Part shown: piece by piece, positions 1,288-62,976 of the stretch
Layout of the letters: each line of letters starts with the position of its first letter
Position numbering within the stretch: position 1 is the first letter of the stretch
DNA from: a virus
Direction: 5' to 3' (one strand)
Length of the DNA stretch: 64,000 bases
Virus record (IMG/VR): IMGVR_UViG_3300025122_000012
Span: 1 to 64,000 of that record
The notes under the pieces: generated by a model
What the model was told of the DNA's origin: nothing
Seen by the model: only the letters and a program-made list of their open reading frames with translations
Databases searched by the model: none
Program-made: the position numbers and the translations under genes

Positions 1288-3042
1288 TTATTTAATAATT
1301 TGTTGCCAACGCTGTATAATGCGCGATTCGGATAGCCCATAGTCGAGGTCCATTTCTCCTGCTGACTGGCGGAGGGGGAGGTCCAGCTGGTCCTCGCGAT
1401 CGCGTTCGTCCTCTGCATCGATCTCGGCCGCAATGTCACGATAGACACCATATGCTTCTAATCTTTCCTCGACACCTTTCCAAAAACCATTGTAGTCAAA
1501 CTCTGCGTCTTCGGGTGCGGCTTCGACGCTGACGAGGTAACCCGATATCTCGGCAATCTCCGATAGATAGCTGTCGAGCCGTTCAAGCTCGCTCTTTACG
1601 GTTTCTTCGTCATCGTCATTGGGCTGGAAGTCATCCTCCCACACCATCTCAACACGGAGCATCGCGGCTTCGGAATCTTGAACGCCTCTCGCGAATACCT
1701 CGGCAGTGCGGATCCGCGGGTTGGGATAAAGAGTATCGTCCGCAATCGACTGGGCATCCTGACGGATCTCCCAACGCAGTCGGTGAGTATCCTCATCAAC
1801 AATAATATCTTTGACGGGCCAGAACGCTTGATGGCGCAAGCCCACGCCGGCGGATCCGGCATCGTCCGGTGCACCGGGCCACTCAATTTCCAAAAAGGTT
1901 TGACTATCGGTTTCAATGCTGGATTCCCATTGTTCCAGCAGCTCGGTCGCCTCAGCGACCCACACATCCTTAAACTTCACGTCTGGATGTTTCTCCTCAA
2001 GGTACTCTAATATGCCAGCACCATCATCGGTGAAGGGATGCCACCCGCCGCCCTTCTCTACCACCTTTTCAACCCCCATGTTCTCAATAAACCAATCAAT
2101 GTAAGACCACAGATCAGGCCCGGGAGCACTGTTCGCTTTGCCTTTAATTTGATAAATGGTGGTCCCGTCAAACTCTATCGTTACAAACGGCTTCATTTTG
2201 CGTTTCTCGCCGGAGCGCAAGGAATAAAGAGTGCCAGATTCGCCGCGTCCACAGTGGGCCATTTCCTTTGCTTCAAAATCACAAGCATGGCTCTGGATAT
2301 CATACCAGAAGTAGCCGTTATCAAAAGTGTGAATGACTTTGTCGGGATCCTTCGTGGGATTGTCGAGGAATATTTGGGCTATGCGATACGCTTCTCTGAA
2401 AGTCTCGGCGCCCTTAAGCTCCTCGTCATAATAAACAGGATCCAGCGCAAGGACGGTCATAATCCGCCGCAGTCTAAGCCGGAGATCATCACTGTCTGTA
2501 AGACGTGAGAGGAGGCTGTGGTCAAAAATAGTTTGCGCAGTCTGTATCTCGCCGTCGGGAAGGCCCACTCGTTGGAGGGCCCGCGTCATACGTTTTCTCA
2601 GCGCCTTCATATCAGCCAGAGTTTGGAGATCTTCCGGTGAGTCGCTGTGGACGCCCATAGCCCAATCTATAATAGGGCCAATGGCGTCGATTATGCGCTC
2701 TCCTAAGGCTTCTCGTTCTTCCTCTGAGGATGAAGCATCCACACCGCTGGTCTCGCGGACTGCTTTTTTAATAAAGTGCGCCAGGTTTCTCGCGTCAGTG
2801 ACATCAAAAAGTTTCATGTCAAACTTTTTAAGAAGCTGACCCAACCATGTAAGGTGTTTTTCGTCTATCTTTTGGAGTTCCACGCCACGTTGATTGGCAA
2901 GCGTGGCGGCGTGCGCGTCACTATGAACAGTGGACGCTGCTTTACGCCTAATAAACGTAACTACCCGCGAAGGGAGACCGATATTTTCGATCGCCTCCGC
3001 GAGTAGATAGTCGTTCCATTTGTTGGATTGACATAGATACAT
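1288..3042 (-). CDS. PcfJ-like domain protein, candidate internal virion protein
   Basis: EAKEMAHC..LYSLR..VTIEF..QIKGKAN resembles PcfJ domain; C-terminal RWQQIIK; ATG at 3042 just after the late motif. Confidence 0.55.
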   Translation of the reverse strand: MYLCQSNKWNDYLLAEAIENIGLPSRVVTFIRRKAASTVHSDAHAATLANQRGVELQKIDEKHLTWLGQLLKKFDMKLFDVTDARNLAHFIKKAVRETSGVDASSSEEEREALGERIIDAIGPIIDWAMGVHSDSPEDLQTLADMKALRKRMTRALQRVGLPDGEIQTAQTIFDHSLLSRLTDSDDLRLRLRRIMTVLALDPVYYDEELKGAETFREAYRIAQIFLDNPTKDPDKVIHTFDNGYFWYDIQSHACDFEAKEMAHCGRGESGTLYSLRSGEKRKMKPFVTIEFDGTTIYQIKGKANSAPGPDLWSYIDWFIENMGVEKVVEKGGGWHPFTDDGAGILEYLEEKHPDVKFKDVWVAEATELLEQWESSIETDSQTFLEIEWPGAPDDAGSAGVGLRHQAFWPVKDIIVDEDTHRLRWEIRQDAQSIADDTLYPNPRIRTAEVFARGVQDSEAAMLRVEMVWEDDFQPNDDDEETVKSELERLDSYLSEIAEISGYLVSVEAAPEDAEFDYNGFWKGVEERLEAYGVYRDIAAEIDAEDERDREDQLDLPLRQSAGEMDLDYGLSESRIIQRWQQIIK

Positions 3043-3048
3043 CAACTA

Positions 3049-3056
3049 TAAATAGT
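3049..3056 (-). promoter_or_regulatory. Putative late promoter motif ACTATTTA
   Basis: Same motif recurs upstream of many structural genes. Confidence 0.6.
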
Positions 3057-3064
3057 TGTGTATA

Positions 3065-3469
3065 TTACTTAATGTCAATTGTAATGGAGTTGGTCGCAGG
3101 GGTTTCGCGGGGAACGAAAACGGCCAAAATGCCCTGCTTGTATTCGGCACGGATAGTATTATAGTCAGCATCGGTGGGAAGCTTCCAAAAACGACTAAAA
3201 GATTTATACTGAACGGTCGTATCAGTATTGTTCTCACTATTATAAGTTACATAAAGGTGATTGTTTTCTACCTTCACGCCTAGGTCGTCCTTGTCGAGTC
3301 CCGGGGCAATAACATCAATCTTGTATTCCTCATCAGTACTGGACACATTGGTCTTTACCGAATAATCATCAACAAGTTGATTGCCAAAATTAATAAAGTC
3401 ATCTCCAAAGATGGTCTCAAAGAGTAAGCTGCGCGGAGACCTCGCGCTGTTGCGTAGAACTGGATTCAT
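3065..3469 (-). CDS. Small heat-shock protein (Hsp20/alpha-crystallin)
   Basis: APGLDKDDL, FSRFWKLP, AEYKQGIL motifs. Confidence 0.9.
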   Translation of the reverse strand: MNPVLRNSARSPRSLLFETIFGDDFINFGNQLVDDYSVKTNVSSTDEEYKIDVIAPGLDKDDLGVKVENNHLYVTYNSENNTDTTVQYKSFSRFWKLPTDADYNTIRAEYKQGILAVFVPRETPATNSITIDIK

Positions 3470-3495
3470 AGGTGTTCTAACCTCCTTCGCTTCAT

Positions 3496-3523
3496 ATTAT
3501 AACACTCTGTGCTGGAGTGTCAA
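3496..3523 (-). promoter_or_regulatory. Sigma70-type promoter TTGACA-N16-TATAAT overlapping an ACACTC-N7-GAGTGT inverted repeat
   Basis: Exact consensus hexamers upstream of hsp20. Confidence 0.8.
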
Positions 3524-3536
3524 GCGAAAAAGTAAA

Positions 3537-3938
3537 TTATTTTCCACTAGTAGGTGGAGGAGTGGGGATATGAGAAATACGTTTATAGTCGTCCTCAAGG
3601 CGGACTATGTCGTGGGTCTCCGGGGTGCTGACTTCCACAAGGCGCACATCGCCCCCCTCCGCACTAAATCGGTGGATCGTCCCCGGCGGAACATGAAATA
3701 TCTCTCCGGGATGCATTATATGCGAGTGAATAGTGTCTCCATCAAAATAGGGGCCCGCTTCACATATCAAGGTACCCTCTAGGACCATAATGGTTTCTTC
3801 TTTTACTCGATGATATTGACGTGAAAGACGATGGCCTTTTTTAATAAATAAGATCTTTCCGACGTATCCGCGAGAGCTTTGGGCCCACAGTTCTTCGTGG
3901 CCCCACGGTTTGTCAACGATTGTAGCTTTTTTTAACAT
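3537..3938 (-). CDS. Cupin-domain protein (mannose-6-phosphate isomerase-like)
   Basis: KPWG, SRQYH..KEE, PPGTIHRF, D.VRLED motifs. Confidence 0.8.
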   Translation of the reverse strand: MLKKATIVDKPWGHEELWAQSSRGYVGKILFIKKGHRLSRQYHRVKEETIMVLEGTLICEAGPYFDGDTIHSHIMHPGEIFHVPPGTIHRFSAEGGDVRLVEVSTPETHDIVRLEDDYKRISHIPTPPPTSGK

Positions 3939-3940
3939 CT

Positions 3941-4249
3941 TTATCCTTTCAGCAGAGTTCGACTATCTCGGTTTAGGCGCCCGGCCACAATGTCAGGGGC
4001 CCCCACCACCACGTGGGTCTCCATCACCCCGCAATTATTAAGAGTAATAGAGGTAAAATTATGCTCTGCGTTCAACTCTTCTCCCATTAAACCATCACGC
4101 AAGAGCTGTTTATAGCCCGTTGCGTTTCGTATCTTTACAACTGAGTCCTCGTTAATCCAGAGTTCTCCCAGCGAAAATTGAGGAATCGCTGTTCGTTCCA
4201 TCCGCGGATTAAAGTTGGTTTCATTGATTACTTCAATAAACTTAATCAT
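3941..4249 (-). CDS. Hypothetical protein
   Basis: Tightly packed co-oriented ORF. Confidence 0.65.
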   Translation of the reverse strand: MIKFIEVINETNFNPRMERTAIPQFSLGELWINEDSVVKIRNATGYKQLLRDGLMGEELNAEHNFTSITLNNCGVMETHVVVGAPDIVAGRLNRDSRTLLKG

Positions 4250-4252
4250 TTT

Positions 4253-4483
4253 CTATCCTAATTTATATACTTTACTATCCTTTACCGCCCAGTAGGCACC
4301 ATCGCAAAAAATGCGAACATACCCTCCCGACGAGACATATGTCACAATTCCTACCCGGGGGCGTTGAGTTTGTTCCACTCTGAGCGGGATAGTAAGCTGT
4401 GGGTCGGCTTCGATAGGACAATCTATTAGATGCACTGCTTGGGGAACGTGTACTAGGTCCCCGATTTGATATGTGTCTTTCAT
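4253..4483 (-). CDS. Hypothetical protein (SH3-like small beta protein)
   Basis: IGDLV motif; abuts neighbours. Confidence 0.55.
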   Translation of the reverse strand: MKDTYQIGDLVHVPQAVHLIDCPIEADPQLTIPLRVEQTQRPRVGIVTYVSSGGYVRIFCDGAYWAVKDSKVYKLG

Positions 4484-4806
4484 TATTCGGAGGACTCAGA
4501 CGGGAGGTCAGCGGGAGCAACGAGCGAAGAGTCCCGAGCCGGAAGGGGGCGCTTCTCGTAGGCTGTCAAAATTTGGGTTATCTCTCCGGCGCGAACATCG
4601 AGTTCTACCAGAGCCTCCCTAAAATCACCTACCAGTTCTCCCACTTTGGTGCTGTTAACAGGCTCATCCCCCGGACTGAGCGCTTGTTGAATATTTTGAA
4701 AGAGATCGATAAGTTTTTGAACTGTGGGGGCTTTAAGCCCGAGAAGCTTACCCGCCTCTTCAAACACGTTCTCTTCATCGACCGTGTAAAATAATTGAAA
4801 TTGCAT
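4483..4806 (-). CDS. Hypothetical protein
   Basis: Co-oriented; AGGA-rich RBS. Confidence 0.6.
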   Translation of the reverse strand: MQFQLFYTVDEENVFEEAGKLLGLKAPTVQKLIDLFQNIQQALSPGDEPVNSTKVGELVGDFREALVELDVRAGEITQILTAYEKRPLPARDSSLVAPADLPSESSE

Positions 4807-4819
4807 CTTTTTTCCTTTC

Positions 4820-5107: not shown

Positions 5108-5138
5108 TTTTAATTCTCCATTGCTCAACTAAATAGGA

Positions 5139-6710: not shown

Positions 6711-6736
6711 ACGTCACCTCTCTTTCAATTATGTCT

Positions 6737-6771: not shown

Positions 6772-8430
6772 CTATTCCCGGTCCGGGAGAACGGTCGCAA
6801 TTTTCTCATCCACTACCCTCTTGAGGGTGGCAGCATCTTTGATTGCGTCGTGGCCCGCTGTCGAACGCATAGAAGAATCTTTTTCATCACACGTTTGAGC
6901 TTCTTCCTGCGGATCACCACAATCAATTAAGAAGAAGCGACCCACATTATCTATCAATGCGCTTAAAGCGTTAAACATTTCAGTTAATTCGCCGCCAATC
7001 ATTTCGGCGCCTCGTGCAAAAGTTTCGTCCATCGCCGAAGGAAGGATGTTTATAGAGCCGATGTCTCCTGATGAAGCTGCCGCCTGGTAGGTGGAACCAA
7101 TTTCAAATTGTTCTTTGCCCCAATAGCCGTGGGCTCCTTTGGGGGCAAAGGGCACTTCTCTTAGCATCTCTTCTTCGCTGAGCGCTGGCGGCCCCGCGGC
7201 ATCTTCGTCTTTGATTCGAAGGAGTTGTGGCCCGCGGACATACTGCCAAAACTTAGGATCATTAGGCATTGATTTCCAGAGTGCATACCACTCGGCGTAC
7301 TGATCTGGGGTGCCCCATATCCTCCCCGCCGCGCCCTGCCTTTCGGCGTGGCGTTTCTCGCCAGGGGCGCCGGGGATTTTCGTTGCGGTTTTCATTTGTA
7401 TTTCATATGTTTCCCCGGGAACAATTATCGACCCGTCGCCCCTTAATGGAACTAGAGCCCCGTTTTTCTCAACCCTCGTAACGACCCATCCGCTTTCAAG
7501 AGGGCTCTTGTCGGAAGCAAGATACATTTCTAAGTCCTTGCGCCCCCAATGTGAAGGGGCGTCCGGCGCGGTCTCTTTGTCTCGGGTTGGGGGTGGTCCG
7601 GCGTCTTCCGCATGTTCATACTCTATTGTCTTCCTTTGAATCGCGAGCTTGGGAGGGCCAATCCACTTAAAAAATGATTCCTGTGAAATCGTGAATTGCC
7701 AAAACACCATACTGGCTTCTTTGATATCCTCGCCGGCTTTAGTTTTGCCGGGCATTTTTCTAATCACCACATACACCATCGGCTGGTCTGGGTTTTTTGC
7801 AAAATGGTTCACGAGATCAATAAAGCTGCCCCCCACCGCGCCGGTAGGGCTTAAAATCTTAAGGCTTACGCGCTGCAGGCCACCGCCGCCGGGTTGGTCC
7901 ACCAGGATACTGTATTCCAATTTAACATCCGCAATGTCCCCCTCTTCGGTATGGACCTGAGTCGACTTCCCTCCAAACATAGCAGCCAGGAAAGGCTCCC
8001 ATAAAAAGCCCGCAACAGAAGCATTAAACTCCCTGATCATAAAAGAGAACGTTTGTAAAAACATTAAGTAAGAAAGAGTAGTTGCAACAGTCATCCCTTC
8101 CGGTGGAGCATCGATGAATTGCTGAATGGAGGCTATCTTCTCTTTAAGGCCTCCGGTGGGGGCTATCTTCGACATCCAAGCTTCGAATGTTGCCCGATCT
8201 TCGCTGCCTTGTTCGGCAGTATACTGTCCTACGCTCTGCTCTGTAGGAATCATAAGAGGAAAGCGCAGCATGCGCTCCCGGCGGGGTTTCCCAGGTCCCG
8301 AAGGGAAGGGGTCCTTGGTCTTTTTTTTCTTGGTCTCTTCCTCCTTGAGCAGAAAGTTCATCACCTCATTTATCAGGTTTGCGTCCTGCGCCTGCTTATA
8401 AAATCTCTCTACAAGTGTATCAATATTCAT
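6772..8430 (-). CDS. Hypothetical protein, possibly PD-(D/E)xK-like; candidate internal virion protein
   Basis: GFLWEPFLA..DIADV..VSLK spacing; CTAATTA motif at 8454-8460. Confidence 0.45.
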   Translation of the reverse strand: MNIDTLVERFYKQAQDANLINEVMNFLLKEEETKKKKTKDPFPSGPGKPRRERMLRFPLMIPTEQSVGQYTAEQGSEDRATFEAWMSKIAPTGGLKEKIASIQQFIDAPPEGMTVATTLSYLMFLQTFSFMIREFNASVAGFLWEPFLAAMFGGKSTQVHTEEGDIADVKLEYSILVDQPGGGGLQRVSLKILSPTGAVGGSFIDLVNHFAKNPDQPMVYVVIRKMPGKTKAGEDIKEASMVFWQFTISQESFFKWIGPPKLAIQRKTIEYEHAEDAGPPPTRDKETAPDAPSHWGRKDLEMYLASDKSPLESGWVVTRVEKNGALVPLRGDGSIIVPGETYEIQMKTATKIPGAPGEKRHAERQGAAGRIWGTPDQYAEWYALWKSMPNDPKFWQYVRGPQLLRIKDEDAAGPPALSEEEMLREVPFAPKGAHGYWGKEQFEIGSTYQAAASSGDIGSINILPSAMDETFARGAEMIGGELTEMFNALSALIDNVGRFFLIDCGDPQEEAQTCDEKDSSMRSTAGHDAIKDAATLKRVVDEKIATVLPDRE

Positions 8431-8456
8431 GATCAATCCTCTTTGGCCAATACTAA

Positions 8457-9553: not shown

Positions 9554-10471
9554 TTATTTTCGTAGCGCACTCTTAAGGATACGCGCAGCAACACGCTTAG
9601 TAATCTCTTCAACCAGATCGTTAGTGGATCCAACAGATTCGTCTTTCTTCTCGTATGCTTTATAATGACCTCCAACGTCGCCGGCCTTCTTGCCTTCGGG
9701 ATGCTCCGCGCTCTTGCCGCGGCGCTTATACTCACCCTTCTTGCTGCCTTCATCATCATCGTCGTCCTCTTCCTTCACGAGGCCGGGGCCCTGCGAGGCG
9801 AGTCCGCCCTTGGAGTTCTTCTTGTTGCGGTGGTCCGGGTGCTGCTTGGAACCCTTATGGGTGTTGGCGGCGCCAGTGGCAGACTTGGGATGCTCCCAGC
9901 CTTCCTGCATCGCTTCTTCGTCGCCCATTTCAACATCGGCTACGACCTCTTCGCCCTCGGGGGCAAAATCGTCGACCTCTTCCTCGGCTTCCACCTCGTC
10001 AGAGTCAATCTCAACTTCATCACCGATCGCATCTTCAAGTGCAGTCTCTAGCGCAGCTAGGAAATCGTCAACAGAAACCATACGACCTTCGTCGGCTCCC
10101 ACCTCGGGCTCCATCTCGATGTCAGCCTCTAACTCGCCGCCGGCTTCAAGCTCATCGTCGGCAGCTTCGCCGGGGTGGCCTCGCTCAAGGTCGCCCGCAG
10201 CATAATCTTCTAGAGCGCCGGGATCAGCCTCGGCCTCTTGAAACAGAGAGCCATCGGCTGCCTCACCTTGTCCGCGGCCGTGGCCGGGGTTCGCTCGGCC
10301 CGACTTGGGACCTAGTGCTCCCGTGCGCCCGGTTCGCAGTTCGTCTAAGTTATCATCGTCATCCCGATAATCCATCTCATTAACAAAGCTGCTAGCAAAC
10401 GGCCTCAAGTTAGCAAGCTTCATAAACTTTCGAACTTGCGCTTCATTCAGAAGGTTCTTTTTGCCTGACAT
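9554..10471 (-). CDS. Acidic low-complexity protein, candidate prohead core/internal protein
   Basis: N-terminal LLNEAQVRKFMKLANL; D/E-rich; late motif at 10511-10517. Confidence 0.55.
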   Translation of the reverse strand: MSGKKNLLNEAQVRKFMKLANLRPFASSFVNEMDYRDDDDNLDELRTGRTGALGPKSGRANPGHGRGQGEAADGSLFQEAEADPGALEDYAAGDLERGHPGEAADDELEAGGELEADIEMEPEVGADEGRMVSVDDFLAALETALEDAIGDEVEIDSDEVEAEEEVDDFAPEGEEVVADVEMGDEEAMQEGWEHPKSATGAANTHKGSKQHPDHRNKKNSKGGLASQGPGLVKEEDDDDDEGSKKGEYKRRGKSAEHPEGKKAGDVGGHYKAYEKKDESVGSTNDLVEEITKRVAARILKSALRK

Positions 10472-25445: not shown

Positions 25446-26375
25446 TTATTTGACTTTCGGCTGTGCTCCGGCCTTGTTATAGGGAGGGTTAACATTAACC
25501 TCTCCCCCTTGGAGCGCTTTAATGGCCAATTTCGATGCCGGCTGGACCGGACCATCCTTGTCATCGATCACTGGCATATCGGAGCGAGGGTTGCTCGTTA
25601 ATACGGCCCCATCGCTGACGCCCGGAACCCCTTTAACATTGTTCACCATAAAGTTGGCCATGGCTTTAATAGCCTCGGCGCCCTCTTTTCCGGTTTTTGC
25701 TTGCATTACTTCTAATGCTTTGCCCTTGTCGAACGCGTTGGGCACGCCACTAAAGAATTTGCCTTTTCCATCAGGCTGTTTGTCAACGGCCAAGGCAGCT
25801 AAAACCTTCTCTACGGCGCCCACATCGTGGAACTGCTTGAAGTTACCTGTGCCGGGCTTGCCCTTGTTTACCCCCAAGATACCCTTCGTAATTGTATTAA
25901 GAATGGCAACCAATTGAGTGCCCGGGAAATCTACTTCGTATCCACTAATTGCCGCGCTGGGGTCGGCCATGGCTGTTGCGAGCCAACGATGGTGGCCATC
26001 CATTAGAAAGTTGTCCTTTGAGACAAACGCGGCGATGTTTCCTCCTGGGCCTCCAGAGCCAAACATAGTACCATTTAACATTCCCAAAGCAAACCAAGCA
26101 GCCTTGCCTAAATTCATAGAAGTTTGTGACGGGAACAAGTCGCGCGCGGCCCACTTACCGTTTAGGTTAACAGGGATAACATCGTCTTTTGCGTCGCCGT
26201 CGAATGCCGCGGGGCCACTAGTTGCATTAGTTTTGGCCTGATTTGGATCAACTGCCGATAAAGCAATTGGAAACATCTTTGTATCAAGTTCGGCCGCGTT
26301 GGCTTTTTCATTTACAAACTTGCGCCAGTTCTCTGTAATCAACTGGGCTTTTGGGTAACTTGACCATTTGCTCAT
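25446..26375 (-). CDS. ParB/Srx-like domain protein, candidate internal virion protein
   Basis: LFPSQ..LMDGHHRW; N-terminal QLITENWRKFVNE; late motif 26400-26406. Confidence 0.6.
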   Translation of the reverse strand: MSKWSSYPKAQLITENWRKFVNEKANAAELDTKMFPIALSAVDPNQAKTNATSGPAAFDGDAKDDVIPVNLNGKWAARDLFPSQTSMNLGKAAWFALGMLNGTMFGSGGPGGNIAAFVSKDNFLMDGHHRWLATAMADPSAAISGYEVDFPGTQLVAILNTITKGILGVNKGKPGTGNFKQFHDVGAVEKVLAALAVDKQPDGKGKFFSGVPNAFDKGKALEVMQAKTGKEGAEAIKAMANFMVNNVKGVPGVSDGAVLTSNPRSDMPVIDDKDGPVQPASKLAIKALQGGEVNVNPPYNKAGAQPKVK

Positions 26376-49185: not shown

Positions 49186-51009
49186 TTAGACTAGATCTTG
49201 TACAATCACAAGACCATACATGTCTGGACGCACCATCTTCTTGGCGTATCGAGTCATGACTCCCTTGCGGGGCACGAAATCTTCAACACCGAAGATAGTA
49301 GGCGTAGTCTGTAGTGGCACGTACGGAGCGTAAACGTAGCCGCTTTCGAGGAAACTACCTCCGCGTCGACCAACAAGGATCAAACTACGGGGGAAGTATG
49401 GATCGACATAAATGTCGAACTTCTTGGAAAGCGAACCGACCTTCACGGTTCCGATATCACCACGATCGCTATCAGCAGTCACGTTAGCGCGGAAGCCAGC
49501 CGTGAACTCAAGGATGTTGGCAACTTCAGGTCCGCAGACAACAAAGTTGGCAGCACCGCGTAGAGTCTTGCGGTGGATCTGGGCAGAAACATCGTTGATT
49601 GTCTCAACGAGAGTCTCATACCACTCACTAACGTTACCAGTGAAGTCAGGCGTCGTCGACGCACCGATTTCCACACCGGTCTCCCGATTGACGAAGCGTC
49701 CAGCTGCACGGGACCAGTACCGAGTACCAGCCGTAGAGCCACGAACGAGATCTTCAACAATCTCACGATCGATTTCAAGAGCGATCTGCTCAGACAGAAT
49801 CTGAGTAAGCTCGACCTCGGCATCAAGGTTGTGGTAGGCGTTAAGATCCTGTCCTAACTCCGGAGTCCACTTAGCCTTGAGCTTCTTGGTAACCGCGGTG
49901 ACGGCCACACTGTCGACCTTGATGTCGATCTCAGGAATGTTTGGACTATTCTCTAGTCCCCACTCGCTTCCACCAACAACAGAACCAAGGGCTCCGCCAT
50001 TATCAAAGTCATCAGTCTCGGGATAAGACCACGTGTTGGCACCTGCGGCGCCGCCAGTGACCTGCATCGCTAGCGGGCTCGTACCCCCACTATCCGTGGT
50101 CGAAAACGTCATTAGTATATAATCCGAACTTCGATCGCCGACTGCGGCCCCATTTGAGGACGAACCGAACATCGAAAGGCGTCGAACCAGACGACCGGTA
50201 ACAGTATTGGCACTACCGGAAGCATTCAGGATGTTAAATCCACCATGGCCTGCAGTACCAGAAACCTGGATGGCCACAAGGTCATCAAGGTTGAGACGGC
50301 GCCCTTCGGCGTCGAAGTTGGTTACCAAGGTCTCGGCAACAATCACAGACGAACCAGAAAGATCCGGGTCGAACTGGGTCAGGGACCCAAGCGTGACATG
50401 ACTGTCGACGCCACTGGTACTACCCGTCTTGTTATTATCAGTTCCGGCGGTACCGGAAACGACAACACGCCAGAGACTACCAGCGAGGCCGCTTGAGCCA
50501 GTTGGAGACGAATAGCCGTTGTTAAGGGCATACGGGCCCTGCTGCGGGAGTGCACCCGAAGCGAGATCCACACCACCGGTGATCTGCGCACCAACAACTC
50601 CACCACCATACAGTGACGAAGAAGCGGGATAACCCAGACGTCCAGGTGAACTGGAGCGATCCCCAATCTCACCAGAAACGGTGAAATCCAGGAAGAAGAT
50701 GAGGCCCGAAGGCAAACTCATCGGTTGAACGCTGACGAGATCGTTAGCGATCAGTGAGCCGAATACACGGCGGACGAGGGGGAATGCGACAGCCGCAAAA
50801 CCCTCGACGTCGCCAGCTTGCATAGAGCTGGACTCTCGGAGTAACTCTTTTGCTTGATTTTCAAGCAGTCGAGCCATCCCATTCCGAATCGTATCATCAC
50901 CTAGTCCCTCTAGAAGACCGGTACTTTCCCACTTATTAATAAGTGTAGCACCTTCCTTCGCGAGGTCCCGATTAACGATACCTTCGGTTAATTTTTGTAC
51001 GATAGACAT
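49186..51009 (-). CDS. Major capsid protein (gp23-like)
   Basis: PLVRRVF..VSVQPM..GLIF, KLKAKWTPEL.QDL.AYH..DAE.EL, YAPYVPL, TRY. Confidence 0.96.
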   Translation of the reverse strand: MSIVQKLTEGIVNRDLAKEGATLINKWESTGLLEGLGDDTIRNGMARLLENQAKELLRESSSMQAGDVEGFAAVAFPLVRRVFGSLIANDLVSVQPMSLPSGLIFFLDFTVSGEIGDRSSSPGRLGYPASSSLYGGGVVGAQITGGVDLASGALPQQGPYALNNGYSSPTGSSGLAGSLWRVVVSGTAGTDNNKTGSTSGVDSHVTLGSLTQFDPDLSGSSVIVAETLVTNFDAEGRRLNLDDLVAIQVSGTAGHGGFNILNASGSANTVTGRLVRRLSMFGSSSNGAAVGDRSSDYILMTFSTTDSGGTSPLAMQVTGGAAGANTWSYPETDDFDNGGALGSVVGGSEWGLENSPNIPEIDIKVDSVAVTAVTKKLKAKWTPELGQDLNAYHNLDAEVELTQILSEQIALEIDREIVEDLVRGSTAGTRYWSRAAGRFVNRETGVEIGASTTPDFTGNVSEWYETLVETINDVSAQIHRKTLRGAANFVVCGPEVANILEFTAGFRANVTADSDRGDIGTVKVGSLSKKFDIYVDPYFPRSLILVGRRGGSFLESGYVYAPYVPLQTTPTIFGVEDFVPRKGVMTRYAKKMVRPDMYGLVIVQDLV

Positions 51010-51030: not shown

Positions 51031-52206
51031 TTAGTCTAATCCTGCTAAACGCAGCATGCGATCCATTCTTGGATCATTGGGCGCCTTGCTTTCTTTTTGT
51101 GAGCTAAGGAGTAGTGAAGTAGGACGCGATATGGCTTCACGAAGTGTTTGTGGTCTCGAACTATTCCTAGATTGCGAAACGCCCACTGCGTTTTGAATTG
51201 TTGCGAACAATACTTCAGTTTCCTCAACAGAATTGGCACGACTAACAGCTTCGACAATTTGGTGTTTTTGTCGCTCATTCAAGGAGGTGCTGCCTAATGC
51301 CTTGTTTTGGTAAACAAGCTTGGCATTTGCCAGGTTCAACTTTCTAAGCTGAACTTTGGCCTCTTGTAACAAAGATTTTAACTCTTTAACAGAAACATTA
51401 AGATTCATGATTCTTCCCTCATAGAGGTCGACGTCAGATTCAGTCGAAACTGAACTCGCCTCCTCTTCTAATTCCTCACCGTCTTCGCTGAGGTGTGCCG
51501 CTGAGGCTGCGGCAATTGCATTGTTGTTGGCTTCCTCGGTGCTATTATAAGCAGACCCGAGCGAAGACCATCCCTGGAGTTCTGGTGACATGTCTACATT
51601 GAGAAGTTCGCTAACTAATGAGTCGAGCATCTCTTCAGACAAATCAATTTCGTCATCTAAGCCTTCTTCCACGGCGGCCTTCTCAATATCTTCATCGCTC
51701 TGAGATTGTGACTCTTTCTCGGCCGCTTGGCTGACCGGGTCATCTTCCAGACTAGCTTCTCCGGGGGTTTTAACCCCCAAAAAGCCAATTCCATCCTCCT
51801 GCAGTTCCATTGCGGTTTCTTCAGAGCCCATTAACTCATCCGGGGAGGCAGAAATTCCCTCGGCTTCTTCTTCTTCAAGACGAGCCTTCAATTGATCGAA
51901 ATTAATCTCTACGATTTCATCCTCGGCGGGGGCATCCAACTCTTCAGTTTGAAAAGCAAAGGGAGTTTCTTCCAAAAATGAGGCATCACCCGGTGTAACA
52001 GGTTCGGCGCCGCCGCCGGCCGGTTCAGCGCCCAGGTCGCCGCCCAGCTCATCGCCTAGGCCTAGATCATCTTGCTCTAATAGACGCGTTAGTGCACTTT
52101 TCACTTCGGACGAATACTTTTCTAATACCACATCCTCAGCATTTTTCAATGCTGCTTCCTTAAGTGCTTTCGCATCAATTATTGCTTCTTCTAACAACGA
52201 AGACAT
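51031..52206 (-). CDS. Prohead scaffold/core protein (gp22-like)
   Basis: Acidic coiled coil immediately upstream of the capsid gene; ends RMLRLAGLD. Confidence 0.75.
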   Translation of the reverse strand: MSSLLEEAIIDAKALKEAALKNAEDVVLEKYSSEVKSALTRLLEQDDLGLGDELGGDLGAEPAGGGAEPVTPGDASFLEETPFAFQTEELDAPAEDEIVEINFDQLKARLEEEEAEGISASPDELMGSEETAMELQEDGIGFLGVKTPGEASLEDDPVSQAAEKESQSQSDEDIEKAAVEEGLDDEIDLSEEMLDSLVSELLNVDMSPELQGWSSLGSAYNSTEEANNNAIAAASAAHLSEDGEELEEEASSVSTESDVDLYEGRIMNLNVSVKELKSLLQEAKVQLRKLNLANAKLVYQNKALGSTSLNERQKHQIVEAVSRANSVEETEVLFATIQNAVGVSQSRNSSRPQTLREAISRPTSLLLSSQKESKAPNDPRMDRMLRLAGLD

Positions 52207-59400: not shown

Positions 59401-59670
59401 TCCGTAGCGCTCGTTCGTTTGTTCGTTTTCAACTGTAACGTACGCGTAAACACGCACAGGCGCAAGTGTAACCTTGTCAACAGCTTCGCCATAAATCGGG
59501 TGATAATTAGAATCTTCTAAACTCACGGCGTAATAGGCTATAGTTTGGCCTACTACGCGCTCGGCGAGTTCATCATTTACTTGTTTTACTAGGTCACGTT
59601 CTTTTTTGCCAAAGAACATGGGTGGGGGCGCTGATTCAGGTTGGTCCCACTTATTTACTGGATCTGCCAT
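56479..59670 (-). CDS. gp14-like neck/head-closure domain fused to an S/G/T-rich repeat fibre
   Basis: N-terminal ~165 aa (ERDLVKQVNDEL..YGEA..VGDFV..FYEI..YFGQ), Pro linker, six ~70-aa repeats. Confidence 0.65.
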   Translation of the reverse strand: MADPVNKWDQPESAPPPMFFGKKERDLVKQVNDELAERVVGQTIAYYAVSLEDSNYHPIYGEAVDKVTLAPVRVYAYVTVENEQTNERYGYEYQTKLTVNFNRKRLTQDQDLFVRVGDFVQYGDEFYEIARTYNDTRYYFGQVEHKFQISAECIKARRGTFRIRGEMTPQIVTSGPGAVPSSEPAPAPPPAVPKAPNNAQYVVLEATDALTQERVLTAGSNITLTDGGAGGGLTIAATGDLAPSGSALVYSSTGVESSGYLKVTGSTTLQGAISSSAGATWAGSVSSSGDIAVTGAIHATTYYGDGSNLAGVGSSASGSARQYSATGLETSGYLKVTGSTTLANSLSSSAGAVWGSSISSSGDMALTGALHAATLYGDGSGLTGVLTSMSGAARQYSVTGVETSGYLKVTGSTTLVGSLSSSAGATWASSLSSSGDVALSGALHAATLYGDGSGLTNLSADGIDVTSSTGDLSYRVVFTEDFQSDGSLGLGGNTGLVYNPTDAVLSSSAGTQIVGDSIFGGALSVSGTLTVGGTGSFSSVNASGTLSGSSTLQAVGATTLGSTLAVSGAATLAATGSFSSIVATGSISGSSTLQTVGATTLGSTLNVSGAVTVAGSVSSSGQVYAGDITLAPNAGNATPQILFTSPGGGAEITSTGAGTFNLVSNAVLELRAGSSSDLQLGADGRTGDIVLGSAGQLSSSYGAAFVQSVSSSGDVAVTGNVHAASYYGDGSNLTGVDAVSGSARQYSSTGMETSGYLKASGSVTLAGTGSVSSLNMTGTLSASSTARFGSSVSSSGDVAVTGNVHAAAYYGDGANLTNVGVSGSARHYSVAGFETSGYLKVTGSTTLAGAVSSSAGAVLVGSISSSGDTAVTGNVHAAAYYGDGSNLTGIGAAAVSGSARHYSVTGLETSGYLRVTGSTTLVGTGSLSSVVATGSISGSSTLQAVGAVTLGAALNVSGSSTFGGGITYPRSAITAATYTVLVTDYYIGVDPTSNAVTLTLPVAAAAGTGKTYVIKDETGQAGANAITIDGDGSETIDGVASFDINSPYGAAHFYTDGSNWFIY

Positions 59671-60288: not shown

Positions 60289-60510
60289 TTAACGCAACAT
60301 TTTTTCTTGTTGGCGCCTTTCCAACTTCTCTCGGGCCCTAATAGCCTTTTTCCGTTTCATCTTTCGGCGCACCGAAGGCTTGATATAATGATTTGTTCTC
60401 TGGCGGTATATTTCTAAAATTTTCTCATTCTTAACTTTTTTAATAAACCTACGAATTAATTTTCCAGACGATTCGTTTCGCCGCAAGTCGACCCGTACAT
60501 TGGTGGCCAT
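60289..60510 (-). CDS. rpsU: Ribosomal protein bS21 homologue
   Basis: V....NES..KLIRRF.KKV....IL...R...HYIKPSVRRK. Confidence 0.85.
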   Translation of the reverse strand: MATNVRVDLRRNESSGKLIRRFIKKVKNEKILEIYRQRTNHYIKPSVRRKMKRKKAIRAREKLERRQQEKMLR

Positions 60511-60522: not shown

Positions 60523-60966
60523 TTATTTCTTTCTCGCGCTCACATCTTGCATGTGGGCTCCCCAACTATTCCCAACAGAGCCAAATAAATTACTAATATC
60601 TACGCCGGCGTCGCCGGCCTCTACACCGGCAAGAGGGGCCGCGGCTGCAGCGCCCTGGAGCTGCTGCGGTCCTGGCGTTGTTCCTTCAAACAAATCTATG
60701 CCATTATAGGCCTGCGAGCCTATCGCTTCCATGAGCTTCTTTTTTTGTGCTTTCATTTTAGATCCCTGTTCCGCACTAAATGTGTTGCGCTGCATACGTG
60801 CTAGCGTTGGATCTACAGGGGGAGAAGCCGCTTCGATTTGCGGGGCGGCAATTCCTCTACTTACTTCGCCAATGATCCCCGAAAGAACACCATCTTCAAA
60901 CATCACCTCCTTGATGCATTCTTTAATCAGCGGCTTCAGAATTTGCTTTAACTGTGATTTTTTCAT
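60523..60966 (-). CDS. Hypothetical head-region protein
   Basis: MKKSQLKQILKPLIKECIKE N-terminus. Confidence 0.6.
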   Translation of the reverse strand: MKKSQLKQILKPLIKECIKEVMFEDGVLSGIIGEVSRGIAAPQIEAASPPVDPTLARMQRNTFSAEQGSKMKAQKKKLMEAIGSQAYNGIDLFEGTTPGPQQLQGAAAAAPLAGVEAGDAGVDISNLFGSVGNSWGAHMQDVSARKK

Positions 60967-61538
60967 TTAACGCCCGATAATACCTTCCATCGATTGAGTC
61001 GACTTTCTTCTAGAAGAGCTTCTTCGTAATCGCTCACATCGCCAAGGTTCCCAAAGTCTTCCGGCGTCATATCAAACAGGCGTGCGCCTAGGCCTCCTAG
61101 GCCCTTGGTTTTCTTACCCTGTACATCTCCCGTAACGGGTGCGCCGGGGATATCCTGCGACAACCAGCCGCGGCTTACATACTTCTTTCGGCGGCCGTCA
61201 TCAGTAGCTTTTCGGCCAGCACGGCGGCCGTCAGCAGCTTCTCGATCGCCGCCTGTGAATTTCTTCCACCAGCCTTTCATCCTGCTTCCAACACCATCGT
61301 CAGAAGGGGAGTCGCCGCGGGTGCGGGGGTGTTCCTCCTCGGCTGGAGATGGCAACTCAATATCGTCGTCGGACGGGGGGATGTGGGCACGACTAGATCT
61401 CGGGTCTGGTTCTCCGGGGACGGTGTCAGACTCTACGCTTGATCTTCGACGACGCGGGCGGGAAACCTCAATTTGCAATTCTTCAGCTACCAGTTGGCGA
61501 AGGGCCTCATATTGCGGTGTAGAAGAAGGTTTAGGCAT
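60963..61538 (-). CDS. Disordered protein, candidate internal head protein
   Basis: Ends EESRLNRWKVLSGVK. Confidence 0.55.
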   Translation of the reverse strand: MPKPSSTPQYEALRQLVAEELQIEVSRPRRRRSSVESDTVPGEPDPRSSRAHIPPSDDDIELPSPAEEEHPRTRGDSPSDDGVGSRMKGWWKKFTGGDREAADGRRAGRKATDDGRRKKYVSRGWLSQDIPGAPVTGDVQGKKTKGLGGLGARLFDMTPEDFGNLGDVSDYEEALLEESRLNRWKVLSGVK

Positions 61539-61542
61539 ACCA

Positions 61543-62142
61543 CTATTTTCCTATAATATCATCCAAGAGGCCAATGATCTTGTTCTTGCGTTGAATGCTT
61601 TCGTTCATCAATCTACTTTCTGAGATTCCCATAAAGGCATTAGGGGTCGATGGTTCCGAAACAATATCAAAGCAGATCAATTGAAAGTCATCCTCTACAA
61701 TCGTCTTACCCTGCTGCTCGGTCACAGACCCCATTCCGCGAGAGGAGATGCCGATCTTTACACCGGACTCAACAAGGGACCGGAGAATTTGGCCTGAGGG
61801 TGTATTAAGAACCTTCGCTTTGCCCATAACATTCGCCCCGTCCATCCAAACTTCTGTCATCATGTGAGACACATTAGCAAGGTTAATAATAGAAGACTCA
61901 GGATGATCGAGTTCTCCCAGAGCGCGGTTATCTTCTACGAGGCCCGCATATTTCTTCACTTCACGAGTAAGGATTGGGCCCGGGTAGACGCGTCCGTTAC
62001 CATTTTGAACGTCACATTCTTGAAGTTTACCCGTGAGCATCAGGCCCCCCTCACGGACAAAACTCTTCTCCGCTTCTGTCAGAAGATCCTGACAGATGCC
62101 GCCTTCACATAATTCATAGTACTCGCGGAGAAGCTGGGGCAT
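61543..62142 (-). CDS. Prohead maturation protease (gp21-like)
   Basis: NGNGRVYP, ALGELDHP, NVSH, GISSRGMGS, DIVSEPS. Confidence 0.95.
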   Translation of the reverse strand: MPQLLREYYELCEGGICQDLLTEAEKSFVREGGLMLTGKLQECDVQNGNGRVYPGPILTREVKKYAGLVEDNRALGELDHPESSIINLANVSHMMTEVWMDGANVMGKAKVLNTPSGQILRSLVESGVKIGISSRGMGSVTEQQGKTIVEDDFQLICFDIVSEPSTPNAFMGISESRLMNESIQRKNKIIGLLDDIIGK

Positions 62143-62148
62143 TCAGTT

Positions 62149-62796
62149 CTACCTACTCTTCAGGATGTCCGCTATGGTTTCCTGGACAAGTCTCTTGGTT
62201 TCGGAGCGCGAGAGGTCGCTTCGGGCCTCTTGCACAGCGCTTTTCTGGAAGGTGTTTCTTAATTTATCGTTAAGAGCACTGTATATCTTCTGATTTACCT
62301 GCGCGAGTCCATTCTCTTGTAGCCAGGGACCGCCGTCGCCCTGCTCTAAACAGGCTAAGTATCCTACTGCATTCCTCATCAATTCACATACTTCTTCACC
62401 CTCTGGGCACGGAGGGAGGGTCCGGAGTACCTCGCCACATATAGCTGCAGCGGCTTCGCCGCCGCGGGTAGAGCCTCCGCCTCGGCCGAGCTGTAGGGCT
62501 GCAGCCTCGTCCAACTTGTCCACATACTGGGTTATCATTCCTTCCAGATTGCCTCCTGCCACATTTCGAGGAGCTTCATCATCTGGGCGCAGCGCTGCGC
62601 CGGCTCGGGCTTCGGGATCTCTAGATGCAGAAAGAAGGCCCGATTCTAATATGCCCCTTAGCGCTTTCGTGGCGCTCAGCACTATTTGATCAAGCTGCTT
62701 AGCTATATTTGCCGACATCCCCTGCTCAAACAATACTGTCTCATGCAAGAAGTATCTTGGGTCTATTCGTTTTACATTTTTTCTATATCGTGCCAT
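62149..62796 (-). CDS. Hypothetical protein, candidate internal head protein
   Basis: MARYRKNVKRIDPRYFLHET N-terminus. Confidence 0.6.
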   Translation of the reverse strand: MARYRKNVKRIDPRYFLHETVLFEQGMSANIAKQLDQIVLSATKALRGILESGLLSASRDPEARAGAALRPDDEAPRNVAGGNLEGMITQYVDKLDEAAALQLGRGGGSTRGGEAAAAICGEVLRTLPPCPEGEEVCELMRNAVGYLACLEQGDGGPWLQENGLAQVNQKIYSALNDKLRNTFQKSAVQEARSDLSRSETKRLVQETIADILKSR

Positions 62797-62976
62797 TATC
62801 TTATTTCCTCAGAGTGTGGGGCCCCGGGGCGAGCCTCCTCACAAGTTTGTCCGGGATGCTCTCCCGATTGGTCCTCTTGGCCCCCGCCCATCAGCTGATC
62901 GATCTACTGTCTCGTGCAAGAAGTATCTTGGATCGATTCTTTTTACATTTTTTCTATATCGTGCCATTATCTTATT
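62734..62976. repeat. ~72-bp direct repeat (62734-62805 and 62905-62976)
   Basis: Both copies cover the start region and first 21 codons. Confidence 0.9.
62839..62967 (-). CDS. Short (42 aa) paralogue with identical N-terminal peptide; possibly frameshifted
   Basis: MARYRKNVKRIDPRYFLHETVDRSADGRG... Confidence 0.55.
   Translation of the reverse strand: MARYRKNVKRIDPRYFLHETVDRSADGRGPRGPIGRASRTNL

What the first reader, a model, noticed from the sequence alone, without database searches (positions are those of the whole stretch)
1288..62967. Candidate peptide 'zip-code' system for loading diverse cargo proteins into the capsid
Seen: unrelated proteins carry short similar terminal helices. The C-terminal type is ESRIIQRWQQIIK (1288-3042), EESRLNRWKVLSGVK (60963-61538) and PRMDRMLRLAGLD (scaffold); a related RKFMKLANL is at the N-terminus of 9554-10471. 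The N-terminal types end in hydrophobic-x-Glu: NKWNDYLLAE, QLITENWRKFVNE (25446-26375), LINEVMNFLLKE (6772-8430), PRYFLHE (62149-62796), MPQLLRE (protease), QKLTE (capsid). Four of these genes sit among early genes, yet each has its own late-type motif. Known: T4 internal proteins use a capsid-targeting sequence removed by gp21 after (I/L)-x-E. Inference: scaffold-mimicking tags recruit swappable cargo (PcfJ-like, ParB/Srx-like, nuclease-like) for packaging, processing and injection.
Basis: partly seen in the sequence, partly recalled or inferred. Interest (0 to 1): 0.8.

Follow-up and report, generated by a model that had tools for sequence, protein, structure and literature searches.

The report
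Clip-off capsid-loading tags on phage proteins
An uncultured marine T4-like phage and its relatives put a few short, conserved, protease-clippable peptides, one copying the tail of the head scaffold, on otherwise unrelated proteins, most likely to load them into the capsid as phage T4 does with its internal proteins, but no packaging has been measured.

Summary
The window is 64 kb of a 76-kb "Far-T4"-type myovirus contig with a gp23-type capsid and a gp21-type (S77) head protease.

The core of the finding is real. The scaffold ends in R-[W/M]-x-x-L-A-G-I/L, and the same tail ends the hypervariable protein beside the protease (60963-61538). In relatives, 43 of 45 motif matches lie at C-termini, with none in 4,539 off-frame ORFs.

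Two N-terminal leaders are also shared by unrelated proteins:
- **NW leader:** MSxWSS…WRxFΦxE, on 25446-26375.
- **RYF leader:** MARRKNVKRIDPRYFLxE, on 62149-62796 and a truncated copy at 62839-62967.

Orthologues of one ParB/Srx-fold cargo carry different tags in different phages. RYF leader differences are 71% synonymous, against 13% just downstream. Cargo tails are preceded by Φ-x-E in 10 of 11 independent families.

Other items are weaker:
- The 1288-3045 termini are conserved but family-specific.
- The 9554-10471 and 6772-8436 tags are unverified.
- The protease and capsid N-termini are inherited propeptide features, not tags.
- Generic "hydrophobic-x-Glu" is near chance.

Best reading (about 0.7): a Far-T4 version of the T4 capsid-targeting-sequence system, with a new scaffold-tail-mimic tag. 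Packaging, cleavage and injection are untested. The scan has flagged similar systems on other DNA.

The parts
51031..52206 (-). Putative head scaffold (391 aa, 22% D+E) directly upstream of the capsid gene. It ends in the LAGI-type tail (last 13 residues, about 51034-51072).
   Evidence: Tail HMM E 1.8e-4. All 21 clade homologues end ...RM[KL][RK]LAGI/LK. The same tail is on the scaffolds of cultured phages immuto and Mel-JY01. It is the second most acidic protein on the contig. Homology to T4 gp22 is not shown.
60963..61538 (-). Hypervariable 191-aa protein just downstream of the protease. Its C-terminal LAGI-type tail (about 60966-61010) is preceded by LEE.
   Evidence: Tail HMM E 8.6e-5. 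No BLAST homologue of the body in relatives, yet the same slot holds 142-891-aa proteins with the same tail.
61543..62142 (-). gp21-type prohead serine protease (Peptidase_S77), the presumed tag-clipping enzyme.
   Evidence: Pfam PF03420 E 4.8e-32. 33% identical to T-even gp21, E 2e-24, with N-terminal PQLLRE aligned to PQLLIE.
62149..62796 (-). 215-aa protein with the RYF leader (first 21 residues, 62734-62796) ending FLHE.
   Evidence: HMM E 2.9e-15. The leader is about 95% conserved on 88-428-aa unrelated bodies upstream of the protease in relatives. Leader codon differences are 71% synonymous against 13% downstream.
62839..62967 (-). Second, truncated copy of the RYF leader gene (42-aa ORF). 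Its first 21 residues are identical to the 62149-62796 leader.
   Evidence: The two copies differ by 4 synonymous and 0 non-synonymous codon changes. HMM E 4e-16.
25446..26375 (-). ParB/sulfiredoxin-fold cargo (309 aa, invariant DGHHR) with the NW leader (first 23 residues, 26307-26375) holding two ΦxE sites (LITE, FVNE).
   Evidence: NW HMM E 7e-12. Orthologues carry NK plus a C-tail, or an N-terminal LAGI tag, instead. Fold: BFVD ParB/Sulfiredoxin E 4e-9. The leader is an isolated helix at residues 7-21. CTATTTA lies at 26400-26406.
1288..3045 (-). 585-aa cargo candidate of unknown function (PcfJ-like lead only). It has a conserved N-leader ...NKWxxΦLLxE (about 2995-3045) and a C-terminal RWxxIIK helix (about 1291-1329) on a disordered tether, preceded by LSE.
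   Evidence: Termini are conserved in homologues of 33-55% identity. The model shows a tether at 554-570 with pLDDT below 50, then a helix at 572-583. The RWxxΦIK variant is C-terminal in 6 of 6 matches. The LAGI-model score is only 5.7 bits. CTATTTA lies at 3049-3055.
9554..10471 (-). Most acidic protein of the contig (305 aa, 25% D+E). Possible second core/scaffold-like protein, with a conserved N-terminal block between LLNE and FVNE (10376-10471). Its LAGI resemblance is unverified.
   Evidence: The block and the upstream CTATTTA are conserved in L114-L116 and G001. Composition. Tail-HMM score -2.6 bits.
6772..8436 (-). 554-aa virus-only protein of unknown function, with a conserved two-helix N-terminal extension containing LINE and LLKE. 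Tag status is unverified.
   Evidence: 93 homologues keep an N-terminal extension before the conserved RRxRxLRFP body. No significant tag-HMM hit. The atlas nuclease lead is at chance level.
49186..51009 (-). gp23-type major capsid protein (607 aa) with an N-terminal propeptide holding several conserved ΦxE sites (KLTE-9, LLE-34, LRE-58). Presumed receptor shell and protease substrate.
   Evidence: Pfam Gp23 E 5.8e-70. The N-terminus is conserved across the clade and resembles the T4 gp23 propeptide.
60523..60966 (-). Conserved 147-aa head-module protein with an NK-like N-terminus (MKKSxLKxILKPLIKE). Possible core protein.
   Evidence: 69 homologues in relatives. The N-terminus is conserved. 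The NK HMM hit is only E 2.
3049..3055 (-). Late-type promoter-like motif CTATTTA upstream of 1288-3045. Equivalent sites lie at 10511-10517, 26400-26406, 46785-46791, 49125-49131 and 52240-52246.
   Evidence: All 16 matches are on the coding strand, against 8.5 expected on both strands. The motif is conserved upstream of orthologues.

Best explanation
This is a capsid-loading tag system of the T4 capsid-targeting-sequence (CTS) kind in a Far-T4-type phage.

During prohead assembly, proteins that carry one of a few short terminal peptides dock onto the scaffold core or the inner capsid surface. The peptides are:
- the scaffold-type R[W/M]xxLAGI helix, usually C-terminal and sometimes N-terminal;
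- the RYF, NW or NK N-terminal leaders.

The gp21-type protease then cuts after hydrophobic-x-Glu on the body side of each tag. This frees the cargo inside the head, and the small tag peptides leave. The cargo (a ParB/Srx-fold protein, a 585-aa protein of unknown function, and hypervariable small proteins) stays with the DNA and is probably delivered into the next host.

Shown here: the tags exist, are strictly terminal, are modular, are under peptide-level selection, are flanked by ΦxE, and are linked to the scaffold and the protease gene.

Inferred by analogy with T4: docking, cleavage, retention and injection.
For: - Head machinery is T4-type: Peptidase_S77 and Gp23, and the protease aligns with gp21.
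- The scaffold tail equals the cargo tail. 43 of 45 motif matches are C-terminal, with 0 in shadow ORFs. All scaffolds carry it, as do 11 independent cargo families.
- Tags are modular. 90 tagged proteins fall into 36 core clusters. One ParB/Srx core carries NW, NK plus a C-tail, or an N-terminal LAGI tag in different phages. Two adjacent L092 genes share only the 17-residue tag.
- Selection acts on the peptide. RYF leader differences are 71% synonymous against 13% in the next 21 codons. Nucleotide identity is 0.88 in the leader, 0.49 upstream and 0.39 downstream. The Glu is invariant, and the x of LxE is the most variable position.
- Tags are excisable. 31 of 32 cargo tails, in 10 of 11 independent clusters (P = 5e-6), have [LIVMF]xE within 12 residues upstream, against a 24% background and 4 of 21 scaffolds.
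- Geometry fits. The tags are isolated helices, and the 585-aa tail follows a disordered tether.
- Tagged genes cluster by the protease or have a late-type motif.
- A complete relative has about 14 tagged genes among 248.
- Precedent: the T4 CTS on diverse internal proteins (PMC3012670, PMC12373910), and T4 Alt clipped at both ends at ITE/LTE (PMC5694885).
Against: - There are no physical data: no virion proteome, cleavage map or binding measurement for this clade, and no cultured phage carries the RYF or NW leaders.
- The scaffold assignment rests on position, composition and conservation. hhalign to T4 and cyanophage gp22 gives probability 0.2.
- The receptor of the LAGI helix is unknown. 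It could be the capsid, the portal, the scaffold or the protease.
- The ΦxE before the tails could be part of the binding helix rather than a cut site.
- Some tagged proteins are acidic and low-complexity. These may be expendable core material rather than delivered cargo.
Confidence: 0.7

Rival explanations
1. The tags are assembly interfaces of the prohead core itself. The tagged proteins would be accessory scaffold or core components, like T4 gp67 and gp68. They would be built in, degraded by the protease and expelled, so they would not be cargo that is kept and injected.
For: The tail is the scaffold's own end. Several carriers are acidic, low-complexity and hypervariable: 9554 has 25% D+E, and the 191-aa protein has no conserved body. 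They sit where T4 has gp67 and gp68, beside the protease.
Against: Some carriers are well-folded enzyme-like proteins: the ParB/Srx fold with invariant DGHHR, and the 585-aa body at pLDDT 83. Cargo tails have a single ΦxE at the tag junction, whereas scaffolds usually lack it. That looks like release of an intact body, not wholesale degradation. This rival probably does hold for a subset.
Confidence: 0.17
2. The terminal peptides address the proteins to something other than the head. Candidates are the phage's own ClpP/GroEL/Hsp20 quality-control set, or the membrane through an amphipathic helix.
For: The phage encodes ClpP (8457-9083), GroEL and Hsp20 next to three candidate genes. RIIQRWQQIIK and similar tails are basic amphipathic helices (inference from sequence).
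Against: The motif is shared with the scaffold and clusters around the S77 protease gene, not the ClpP gene. The conserved small residues (A/S-G) and the flanking ΦxE are not features of membrane-targeting helices or Clp degrons. Tags of very different sequence substitute for one another on the same core.
Confidence: 0.06
3. The conserved gene ends are DNA-level recombination linkers that shuffle gene cassettes, and the peptide itself has no function.
For: There are tandem arrays and a duplicated leader cassette. Leader nucleotide identity is high, at 0.88.
Against: Most leader differences are synonymous, and the amino-acid sequence is held across many codon variants. The C-tail is conserved as a degenerate peptide motif, not as DNA. 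Recombination at the leaders may still be how cargo is swapped, on top of a peptide function.
Confidence: 0.04

Closest known systems
Phage T4 / T-even capsid targeting sequence (CTS) on internal proteins IPI-III and Alt, removed by gp21 (PMC3012670, PMC5694885, PMC12373910)
   Same: Both have a gp21-family protease and a gp23-family capsid. Both use short 10-20-residue leaders as the only similarity between otherwise unrelated, polymorphic proteins. The leaders end in (L/I)-x-E. The genes sit in hypervariable tandem loci. C-terminal clipping is also known, for T4 Alt at LTE-619.
   Different: This clade has at least four unrelated tag classes rather than one. One class copies the C-terminal helix of the scaffold, is mostly C-terminal and can move to the N-terminus. 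Tags interchange on orthologous cargo. The cargo includes large folded proteins encoded far from the head module. No tool-based similarity to the T4 CTS sequence itself was established, and nothing has been measured experimentally.
Encapsulin cargo-loading (targeting) peptides (PMC8229669)
   Same: Both are short terminal peptides, usually C-terminal and sometimes N-terminal, on a flexible linker. Both direct diverse cargo to the lumen of an HK97-fold shell, and both allow cargo to be found by consensus motif. There is also a loose look-alike in sequence: GGDLGIRK against ...LAGIK.
   Different: Encapsulins have no scaffold, no maturation protease and no tag removal. Here the tag is shared with a scaffold and flanked by protease sites. 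Binding to a capsid pocket is untested, and the sequence resemblance is anecdotal.
Giant-phage (phiKZ, SPN3US) head-protein propeptides (PMC5694885, PMC10052503)
   Same: Both have many inner-head or ejection proteins with protease-removed propeptides, conserved N-termini on diverged paralogues, and multiple cut sites within a propeptide.
   Different: The giant-phage propeptides are mostly longer than 100 residues and are cut at A/S-x-E by an S80-type protease. No scaffold-tail mimic has been described there.
P22-type scaffolding protein C-terminal coat-binding helix (established knowledge, not tested here)
   Same: In both, a C-terminal basic helical element of the scaffold is the contact with the shell. 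That makes a scaffold-tail copy a logical address label.
   Different: The P22 scaffold exits intact without proteolysis, and its tail is not known to be borrowed by cargo proteins.

Membership tests
T4-type CTS / internal-protein system | gp21-family (Peptidase_S77) prohead protease and gp23-family capsid encoded by the phage | tested here: met
   PF03420 E 4.8e-32 and PF07068 E 5.8e-70. BLASTP to T-even gp21 gives E 2e-24.
T4-type CTS / internal-protein system | A short N-terminal leader is the only similarity among otherwise unrelated proteins | tested here: met
   RYF: 25 of 27 non-homologous hits at N-termini. NW: 14 of 14. HMM E values from 1e-12 to 1e-16. 36 core clusters.
T4-type CTS / internal-protein system | The leader ends in a (L/I)-x-E site | tested here: met
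   RYF ends F-L-x-E, with E invariant and x the most variable position. NW ends F-[LV]-x-E. The invariant Glu (E15) lies in the KLLxE site, about 10-20 residues in, across the ParB/Srx family.
T4-type CTS / internal-protein system | The leader is actually cleaved by the prohead protease | not testable with these tools
   This needs proteomics or in-vitro cleavage.
T4-type CTS / internal-protein system | Proteins are packaged in the head and injected with the DNA | not testable with these tools
   No virion proteome exists for this clade. No cultured phage carries the RYF or NW leaders.
T4-type CTS / internal-protein system | Sequence relatedness of the leaders to the T4 CTS | not tested
   The T4 IP leader was not retrieved with a tool. 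Any resemblance is recalled from memory only.
T4-type CTS / internal-protein system | Polymorphic, tandem cargo loci with a conserved leader | tested here: met
   There are two to three tandem RYF genes with unrelated bodies per locus. The slot downstream of the protease is hypervariable, 142-891 aa.
Encapsulin cargo-loading peptide | Terminal peptide on a flexible linker, on diverse cargo | tested here: met
   The 585-aa model has a disordered tether at 554-570 followed by a terminal helix. The linker before the tails varies.
Encapsulin cargo-loading peptide | The shell self-assembles without a scaffold, a maturation protease or a packaged genome | tested here: not met
   The phage has a scaffold, an S77 protease, a portal and a terminase. 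It works like an encapsulin system in part but is not a member.
Encapsulin cargo-loading peptide | The peptide binds a pocket on the luminal face of the HK97-fold shell | not testable with these tools
   No multimer prediction or structure was available.
gp22-type prohead scaffold (for 51031-52206) | Sequence or profile homology to T4 or cyanophage gp22 | tested here: inconclusive
   hhalign probability 0.2. No Pfam, PHROG or tblastn match.
gp22-type prohead scaffold (for 51031-52206) | Gene directly upstream of the major capsid gene, encoding an acidic helical protein conserved in the clade | tested here: met
   21-nt gap to the capsid gene. 22% D+E, pI 4.1. 30 homologues. The arrangement is the same in immuto and Mel-JY01.
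ParB/sulfiredoxin superfamily (for 25446-26375) | ParB/Srx fold with a conserved DGxHR-type motif | tested here: met
   DGHHR is invariant in 13 sequences. BFVD ParB/Sulfiredoxin E 4.2e-9, TM 0.58. PDB ParB-N hits are weak, E 0.013. Pfam gives no hit.
PcfJ-like (PF14284) (for 1288-3045) | Pfam match above the gathering threshold | tested here: inconclusive
   The window protein has no hit. Homologue L082 gives E 0.022 at 15 bits, and P0010 gives 24.5 bits, both under the 25-bit cut-off. No clear fold match.

The most novel reading that the evidence does not exclude
The scaffold-type LAGI helix may be a true luminal address label. It would bind the same kind of pocket on the HK97-fold capsid that encapsulin cargo-loading peptides use. 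The Far-T4 scaffold tail, its cargo copies and encapsulin targeting peptides would then be one mechanistic, and possibly evolutionary, continuum. In addition, the four tag classes together would define a sequence-predictable 'injectome' of a dozen or more proteins per genome, likely anti-defence or take-over factors, across a very abundant uncultured marine phage clade.
Probability: 0.15. Interest if true: 0.85.

Novelty: new variant of a known kind. Interest (0 to 1): 0.62.

Why it matters
If the tags do load proteins into the head, they give a simple sequence rule for listing the proteins that a large, abundant and almost wholly uncultured group of marine T4-like phages delivers into its hosts. 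In T-even phages, the characterised members of this class (Ip1-3) turned out to be specific anti-restriction factors (PMC12373910).

The scaffold-tail mimic bounded by a protease site also suggests how a phage can recruit new cargo: copy about 12 residues of the scaffold, and release the cargo by the same cut that dismantles the scaffold. It points to a concrete peptide-shell contact to look for in prohead structures. As with the T4 CTS, the tags could serve to package foreign proteins in phages of Bacteroidota and cyanobacteria.

Tried and rejected
- The T4 late promoter TATAAATA is not enriched: 4 matches against 2 expected.
- Generic [LI]xE near N-termini is at chance level. The post-hoc pattern [FYWLM][LIVF]xE gave 18 of 70 against 7.4, but I treated it as biased.
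- The scaffold gave no tblastn match in cultured phages and no profile match to gp22.
- The RYF and NW leaders were not found in 50,697 phage records.
- For the 585-aa protein, a PDB profile search, Foldseek and VIA-align (best Z 8 on a generic helical bundle, and a GNAT-like sandwich at Z 6-6.7 within the noise range) gave no assignable fold.
- The NK-like look of distant 6772-family leaders (MSDLRNILKEEY) did not reach significance: E 0.06-0.8, though always at residues 2-11.
- The 9554 N-terminal 'LAGI-like' motif failed the tail HMM, and the relaxed regex is at background density.
- CTATTTA is not found upstream of tagged genes that lie inside the protease operon: 0% for NW, NK and RYF, against 9.6% for untagged genes. 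It marks only stand-alone late genes.
- By eye, there is no obvious co-variation between scaffold-tail and cargo-tail variants within genomes.
- A membrane-targeting helix and a Clp degron were considered and judged unlikely (see rivals).

Full report
**Context.** The window is the first 64 kb of a 76.2-kb IMG/VR viral contig, about 42% complete. All real genes are on the minus strand. The phage is a deep-branching T4-like ('Far-T4'-type) myovirus. It has a gp23-family capsid protein (49186-51009, PF07068 E 5.8e-70), a gp21-family Peptidase_S77 prohead protease (61543-62142, E 4.8e-32) and a tail sheath. The portal and terminase lie just beyond the window. The nearest cultured relatives by capsid are Flavobacterium phage immuto, Microcystis phage Mel-JY01 and Rhodothermus phage RM378. 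IMG/VR holds hundreds of uncultured marine relatives. The Far-T4 literature does not mention scaffold, prohead or internal proteins (PMC4360716).

The unifying rule 'ends in hydrophobic-x-Glu' carries little information on its own. [LI]xE occurs in the first 35 residues of 28 of 70 proteins, against 23.9 +/- 2.9 for internal windows. The information lies in the longer motifs, so I tested those against related genomes.

**The scaffold-type tail.** The gene immediately downstream of the protease is hypervariable in relatives (142-891 aa, with no BLAST similarity to the window's 191-aa protein). Even so, it repeatedly ends in ...R[W/M]KxL[A/S]GIK. The pattern R[WMF]xx[LI][AS]G[ILV] occurs 45 times in 1,486 predicted proteins of the related loci. 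Of these, 43 lie within 8 residues of the C-terminus, and there are none in 4,539 off-frame ORFs. All 21 homologues of the window's putative scaffold (51031-52206) end this way. So do 11 independent non-scaffold families.

An HMM built only from relatives picks out exactly two proteins among 866 six-frame ORFs of this contig: 60963-61538 (E 8.6e-5) and the scaffold (E 1.8e-4). The same tail ends the scaffolds of cultured phages immuto (...SRWQKLAGIIK) and Mel-JY01 (...ERMKKLAGIVK). It is absent from T-even and cyanophage gp22.

The 'scaffold' label rests on position (21 nt upstream of the capsid gene), acidity (22% D+E), conservation and the same arrangement in cultured relatives. A profile comparison with gp22 was negative.

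**N-terminal leaders.** In an unbiased test, each protein's termini were compared with all proteins of related loci, excluding homologues of its body. The clearest outliers were the N-termini of 25446-26375 (14 of 14 hits at N-termini), 62149-62796 (25 of 27) and 75768-76127, which lies outside the window (49 of 53), and the C-terminus of 60963-61538 (4 of 4). Tail-fibre repeats, low-complexity regions and some probable divergent orthologues accounted for most other hits.

- **RYF leader (MARRKNVKRIDPRYFL[H/N]E-TV).** It heads two to three tandem genes upstream of the protease in many relatives, on bodies of 88-428 aa that share nothing else. The window has a full gene (62149-62796) and a truncated second copy (62839-62967) with identical first 21 residues. 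The two copies differ by four synonymous changes only. Across 30 distinct leaders, 71% of codon differences are synonymous, against 13% in the next 21 codons. Nucleotide identity is 0.88 in the leader, 0.49 upstream and 0.39 downstream. The Glu is invariant, and the x of L-x-E is the most variable position. This is selection on the peptide, with the profile expected of a gp21-type site.
- **NW leader (MSxWSS...WRxFΦxE).** In the window it sits on 25446-26375. In relatives it heads diverse proteins beside the protease.
- **NK leader (MKISxxELxxIIKEE).** It is common in relatives. On this contig it is significant only on three small genes beyond the window end.

**Modularity.** The 90 tagged proteins fall into 36 core clusters. 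The clearest case is the window's 25446-26375 protein. Its orthologues carry the NW leader (window, L093), the NK leader plus a C-terminal RWKELIKG tail (L089/L090, 59% identical), or the scaffold-type motif at the N-terminus (L091, MKKLLTERFQELAGIK..., 15 bits against the tail HMM). In L092, two adjacent genes share only that 17-residue N-terminal tag. Different tags therefore substitute for one another on the same cargo, which argues that they serve one purpose.

**Excisability and geometry.** 31 of 32 cargo tails have [LIVMF]xE within 12 residues upstream, mostly 3-5 residues before the Arg. That is 10 of 11 independent families (binomial P = 5e-6 against a 24% background). Only 4 of 21 scaffolds have one; most have D-P there instead. 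N-terminal LAGI tags sit between two ΦxE sites.

AlphaFold models show the 25446 leader as an isolated helix at residues 7-21. In the 585-aa protein a disordered tether (554-570, pLDDT below 50) precedes a terminal helix at 572-583. T4 gp21 cuts after (L/I)-x-E. T4 CTS leaders are 10-20 residues. T4 Alt is clipped at both ends, at ITE-6 and LTE-619 (PMC5694885).

**The weaker candidates.**
- **1288-3045.** Its N-leader (...NKWxxΦLLxE) and its ΦxE-xRIIQRWxxIIK tail are kept across homologues of 33-55% identity, including one with a different C-terminal half. The RWxxΦIK variant is strictly C-terminal, 6 of 6. However, it scores only 5.7 bits against the LAGI model. I call it a probable member.
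- **9554-10471.** This is the most acidic protein on the contig. It has a conserved N-terminal block between LLNE and FVNE, and a conserved late-type motif upstream. The quoted RKFMKLANL fails the tail model at -2.6 bits. It may be a second core protein.
- **6772-8436.** It belongs to a virus-only family with a conserved N-terminal extension but no significant tag match.
- **MPQLLRE and QKLTE.** MPQLLRE of the protease aligns with gp21 PQLLIE. QKLTE of the capsid lies in a propeptide resembling that of T4 gp23. By position relative to the conserved VRR...VQPM block, the main maturation cut is more likely after LRE-58 (inference). These are substrate features, not tags.

**Late expression.** Early genes carry TTGACA...TATAAT-like sites. 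A different motif, CTATTTA, occurs 16 times, always on the coding strand (8.5 expected on both strands). It lies 10-40 nt upstream of the sheath and scaffold genes and 47832-49100, and also upstream of 1288-3045, 9554-10471 and 25446-26375. It is conserved upstream of their orthologues. 6772-8436 has only a relaxed CTAATTA that overlaps the preceding stop codon. Tagged genes inside the protease operon lack the motif.

**Cargo identity.** 25446-26375 has a ParB/sulfiredoxin fold with invariant DGHHR. The 585-aa body is well folded, but its function is unknown and the PcfJ hits are sub-threshold. 'Nuclease-like' for 6772 is unsupported. A complete 194-kb relative has about 14 HMM-positive tagged genes in five clusters, among 248 ORFs.

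**Interpretation.** The best explanation (about 0.7) is a Far-T4 counterpart of the T-even CTS and internal-protein system (PMC3012670, PMC12373910), with a new element. This is a copy of the scaffold's C-terminal helix used as a removable address label at either end of the cargo, beside at least three unrelated leader classes. It resembles encapsulin targeting peptides in logic (PMC8229669) but is not an encapsulin system.

The main rival (about 0.17) is that many tagged proteins are expendable core components rather than delivered cargo, and this probably holds for a subset. Packaging, cleavage, the receptor of the tail and injection are all untested.

The scan's notebook shows that similar tag systems, including scaffold-tail tags and the MKISK leader, were flagged on other genomes. 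Those notes agree with this analysis but are not independent evidence.

Noticed in passing
window 3065-9083: The phage encodes its own protein quality-control set: Hsp20 (3065-3469), GroEL (5139-6710, PHROG E 1e-137) and a ClpP-family protease (8457-9083, PF00574 E 7.7e-32). This ClpP protease is a second protease, besides the gp21-type head protease. The order is conserved in the complete relative G001.
   Followed up: partly
window 60289-60510: A ribosomal protein S21 gene (PF01165 E 3.3e-10) lies inside the head module. A syntenic S21 gene is annotated in Microcystis phage Mel-JY01.
   Followed up: partly
window 62797-62967: The upstream RYF-leader copy stops after 42 codons. A 31-codon ORF in another frame (62796-62891) runs up to the start of the next gene. 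This could be a frameshifted remnant or a shifted small gene; relatives have intact tandem RYF genes here.
   Followed up: partly
window 1-1142: Two lipoprotein-like genes sit at the left end. One (303-1142) has a trypsin-like peptidase domain (PF13365 E 8.6e-18) and a lipobox-like N-terminus. They are conserved in related phage genomes, so they are phage genes, not host flank.
   Followed up: partly
window 53150-59670: Four tail-fibre-like genes share a conserved N-terminus (MAYKF...) and C-terminus (...DGTQWNIF / ...DGSNWFIY) around repetitive Ser/Gly-rich bodies. This is a second, unrelated kind of end-conserved modularity.
   Followed up: no
window 33107-37597: The 1,496-aa protein has an internal ...RFKKLAGIT... 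near residue 1100 that weakly matches the tail model (E 0.18). It is probably chance, but it is the only internal near-match on the contig.
   Followed up: no
window 3470-3536, 6711-6771, 14389-14419 and other early gaps: Clear sigma-70-type TTGACA-N17-TATAAT promoters precede the Hsp20, GroEL, replication and nucleotide-metabolism genes, in contrast to the CTATTTA motif of late genes.
   Followed up: partly
L119 (Flavobacterium phage immuto) 7725-8966: The GenBank product 'DNA polymerase phi-like protein' directly upstream of the capsid gene is almost certainly the head scaffold. It is acidic, sits in the scaffold position and ends in the LAGI tail.
   Followed up: partly
G001 179275-180612 and 70990-71340: The complete relative has further candidate leaders that the four HMMs did not capture: MKNYLHSFDAFLQE-A with CTATTTA upstream, and MTFVSGQWKKFLTE-A. 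The tag census is therefore a lower bound.
   Followed up: no
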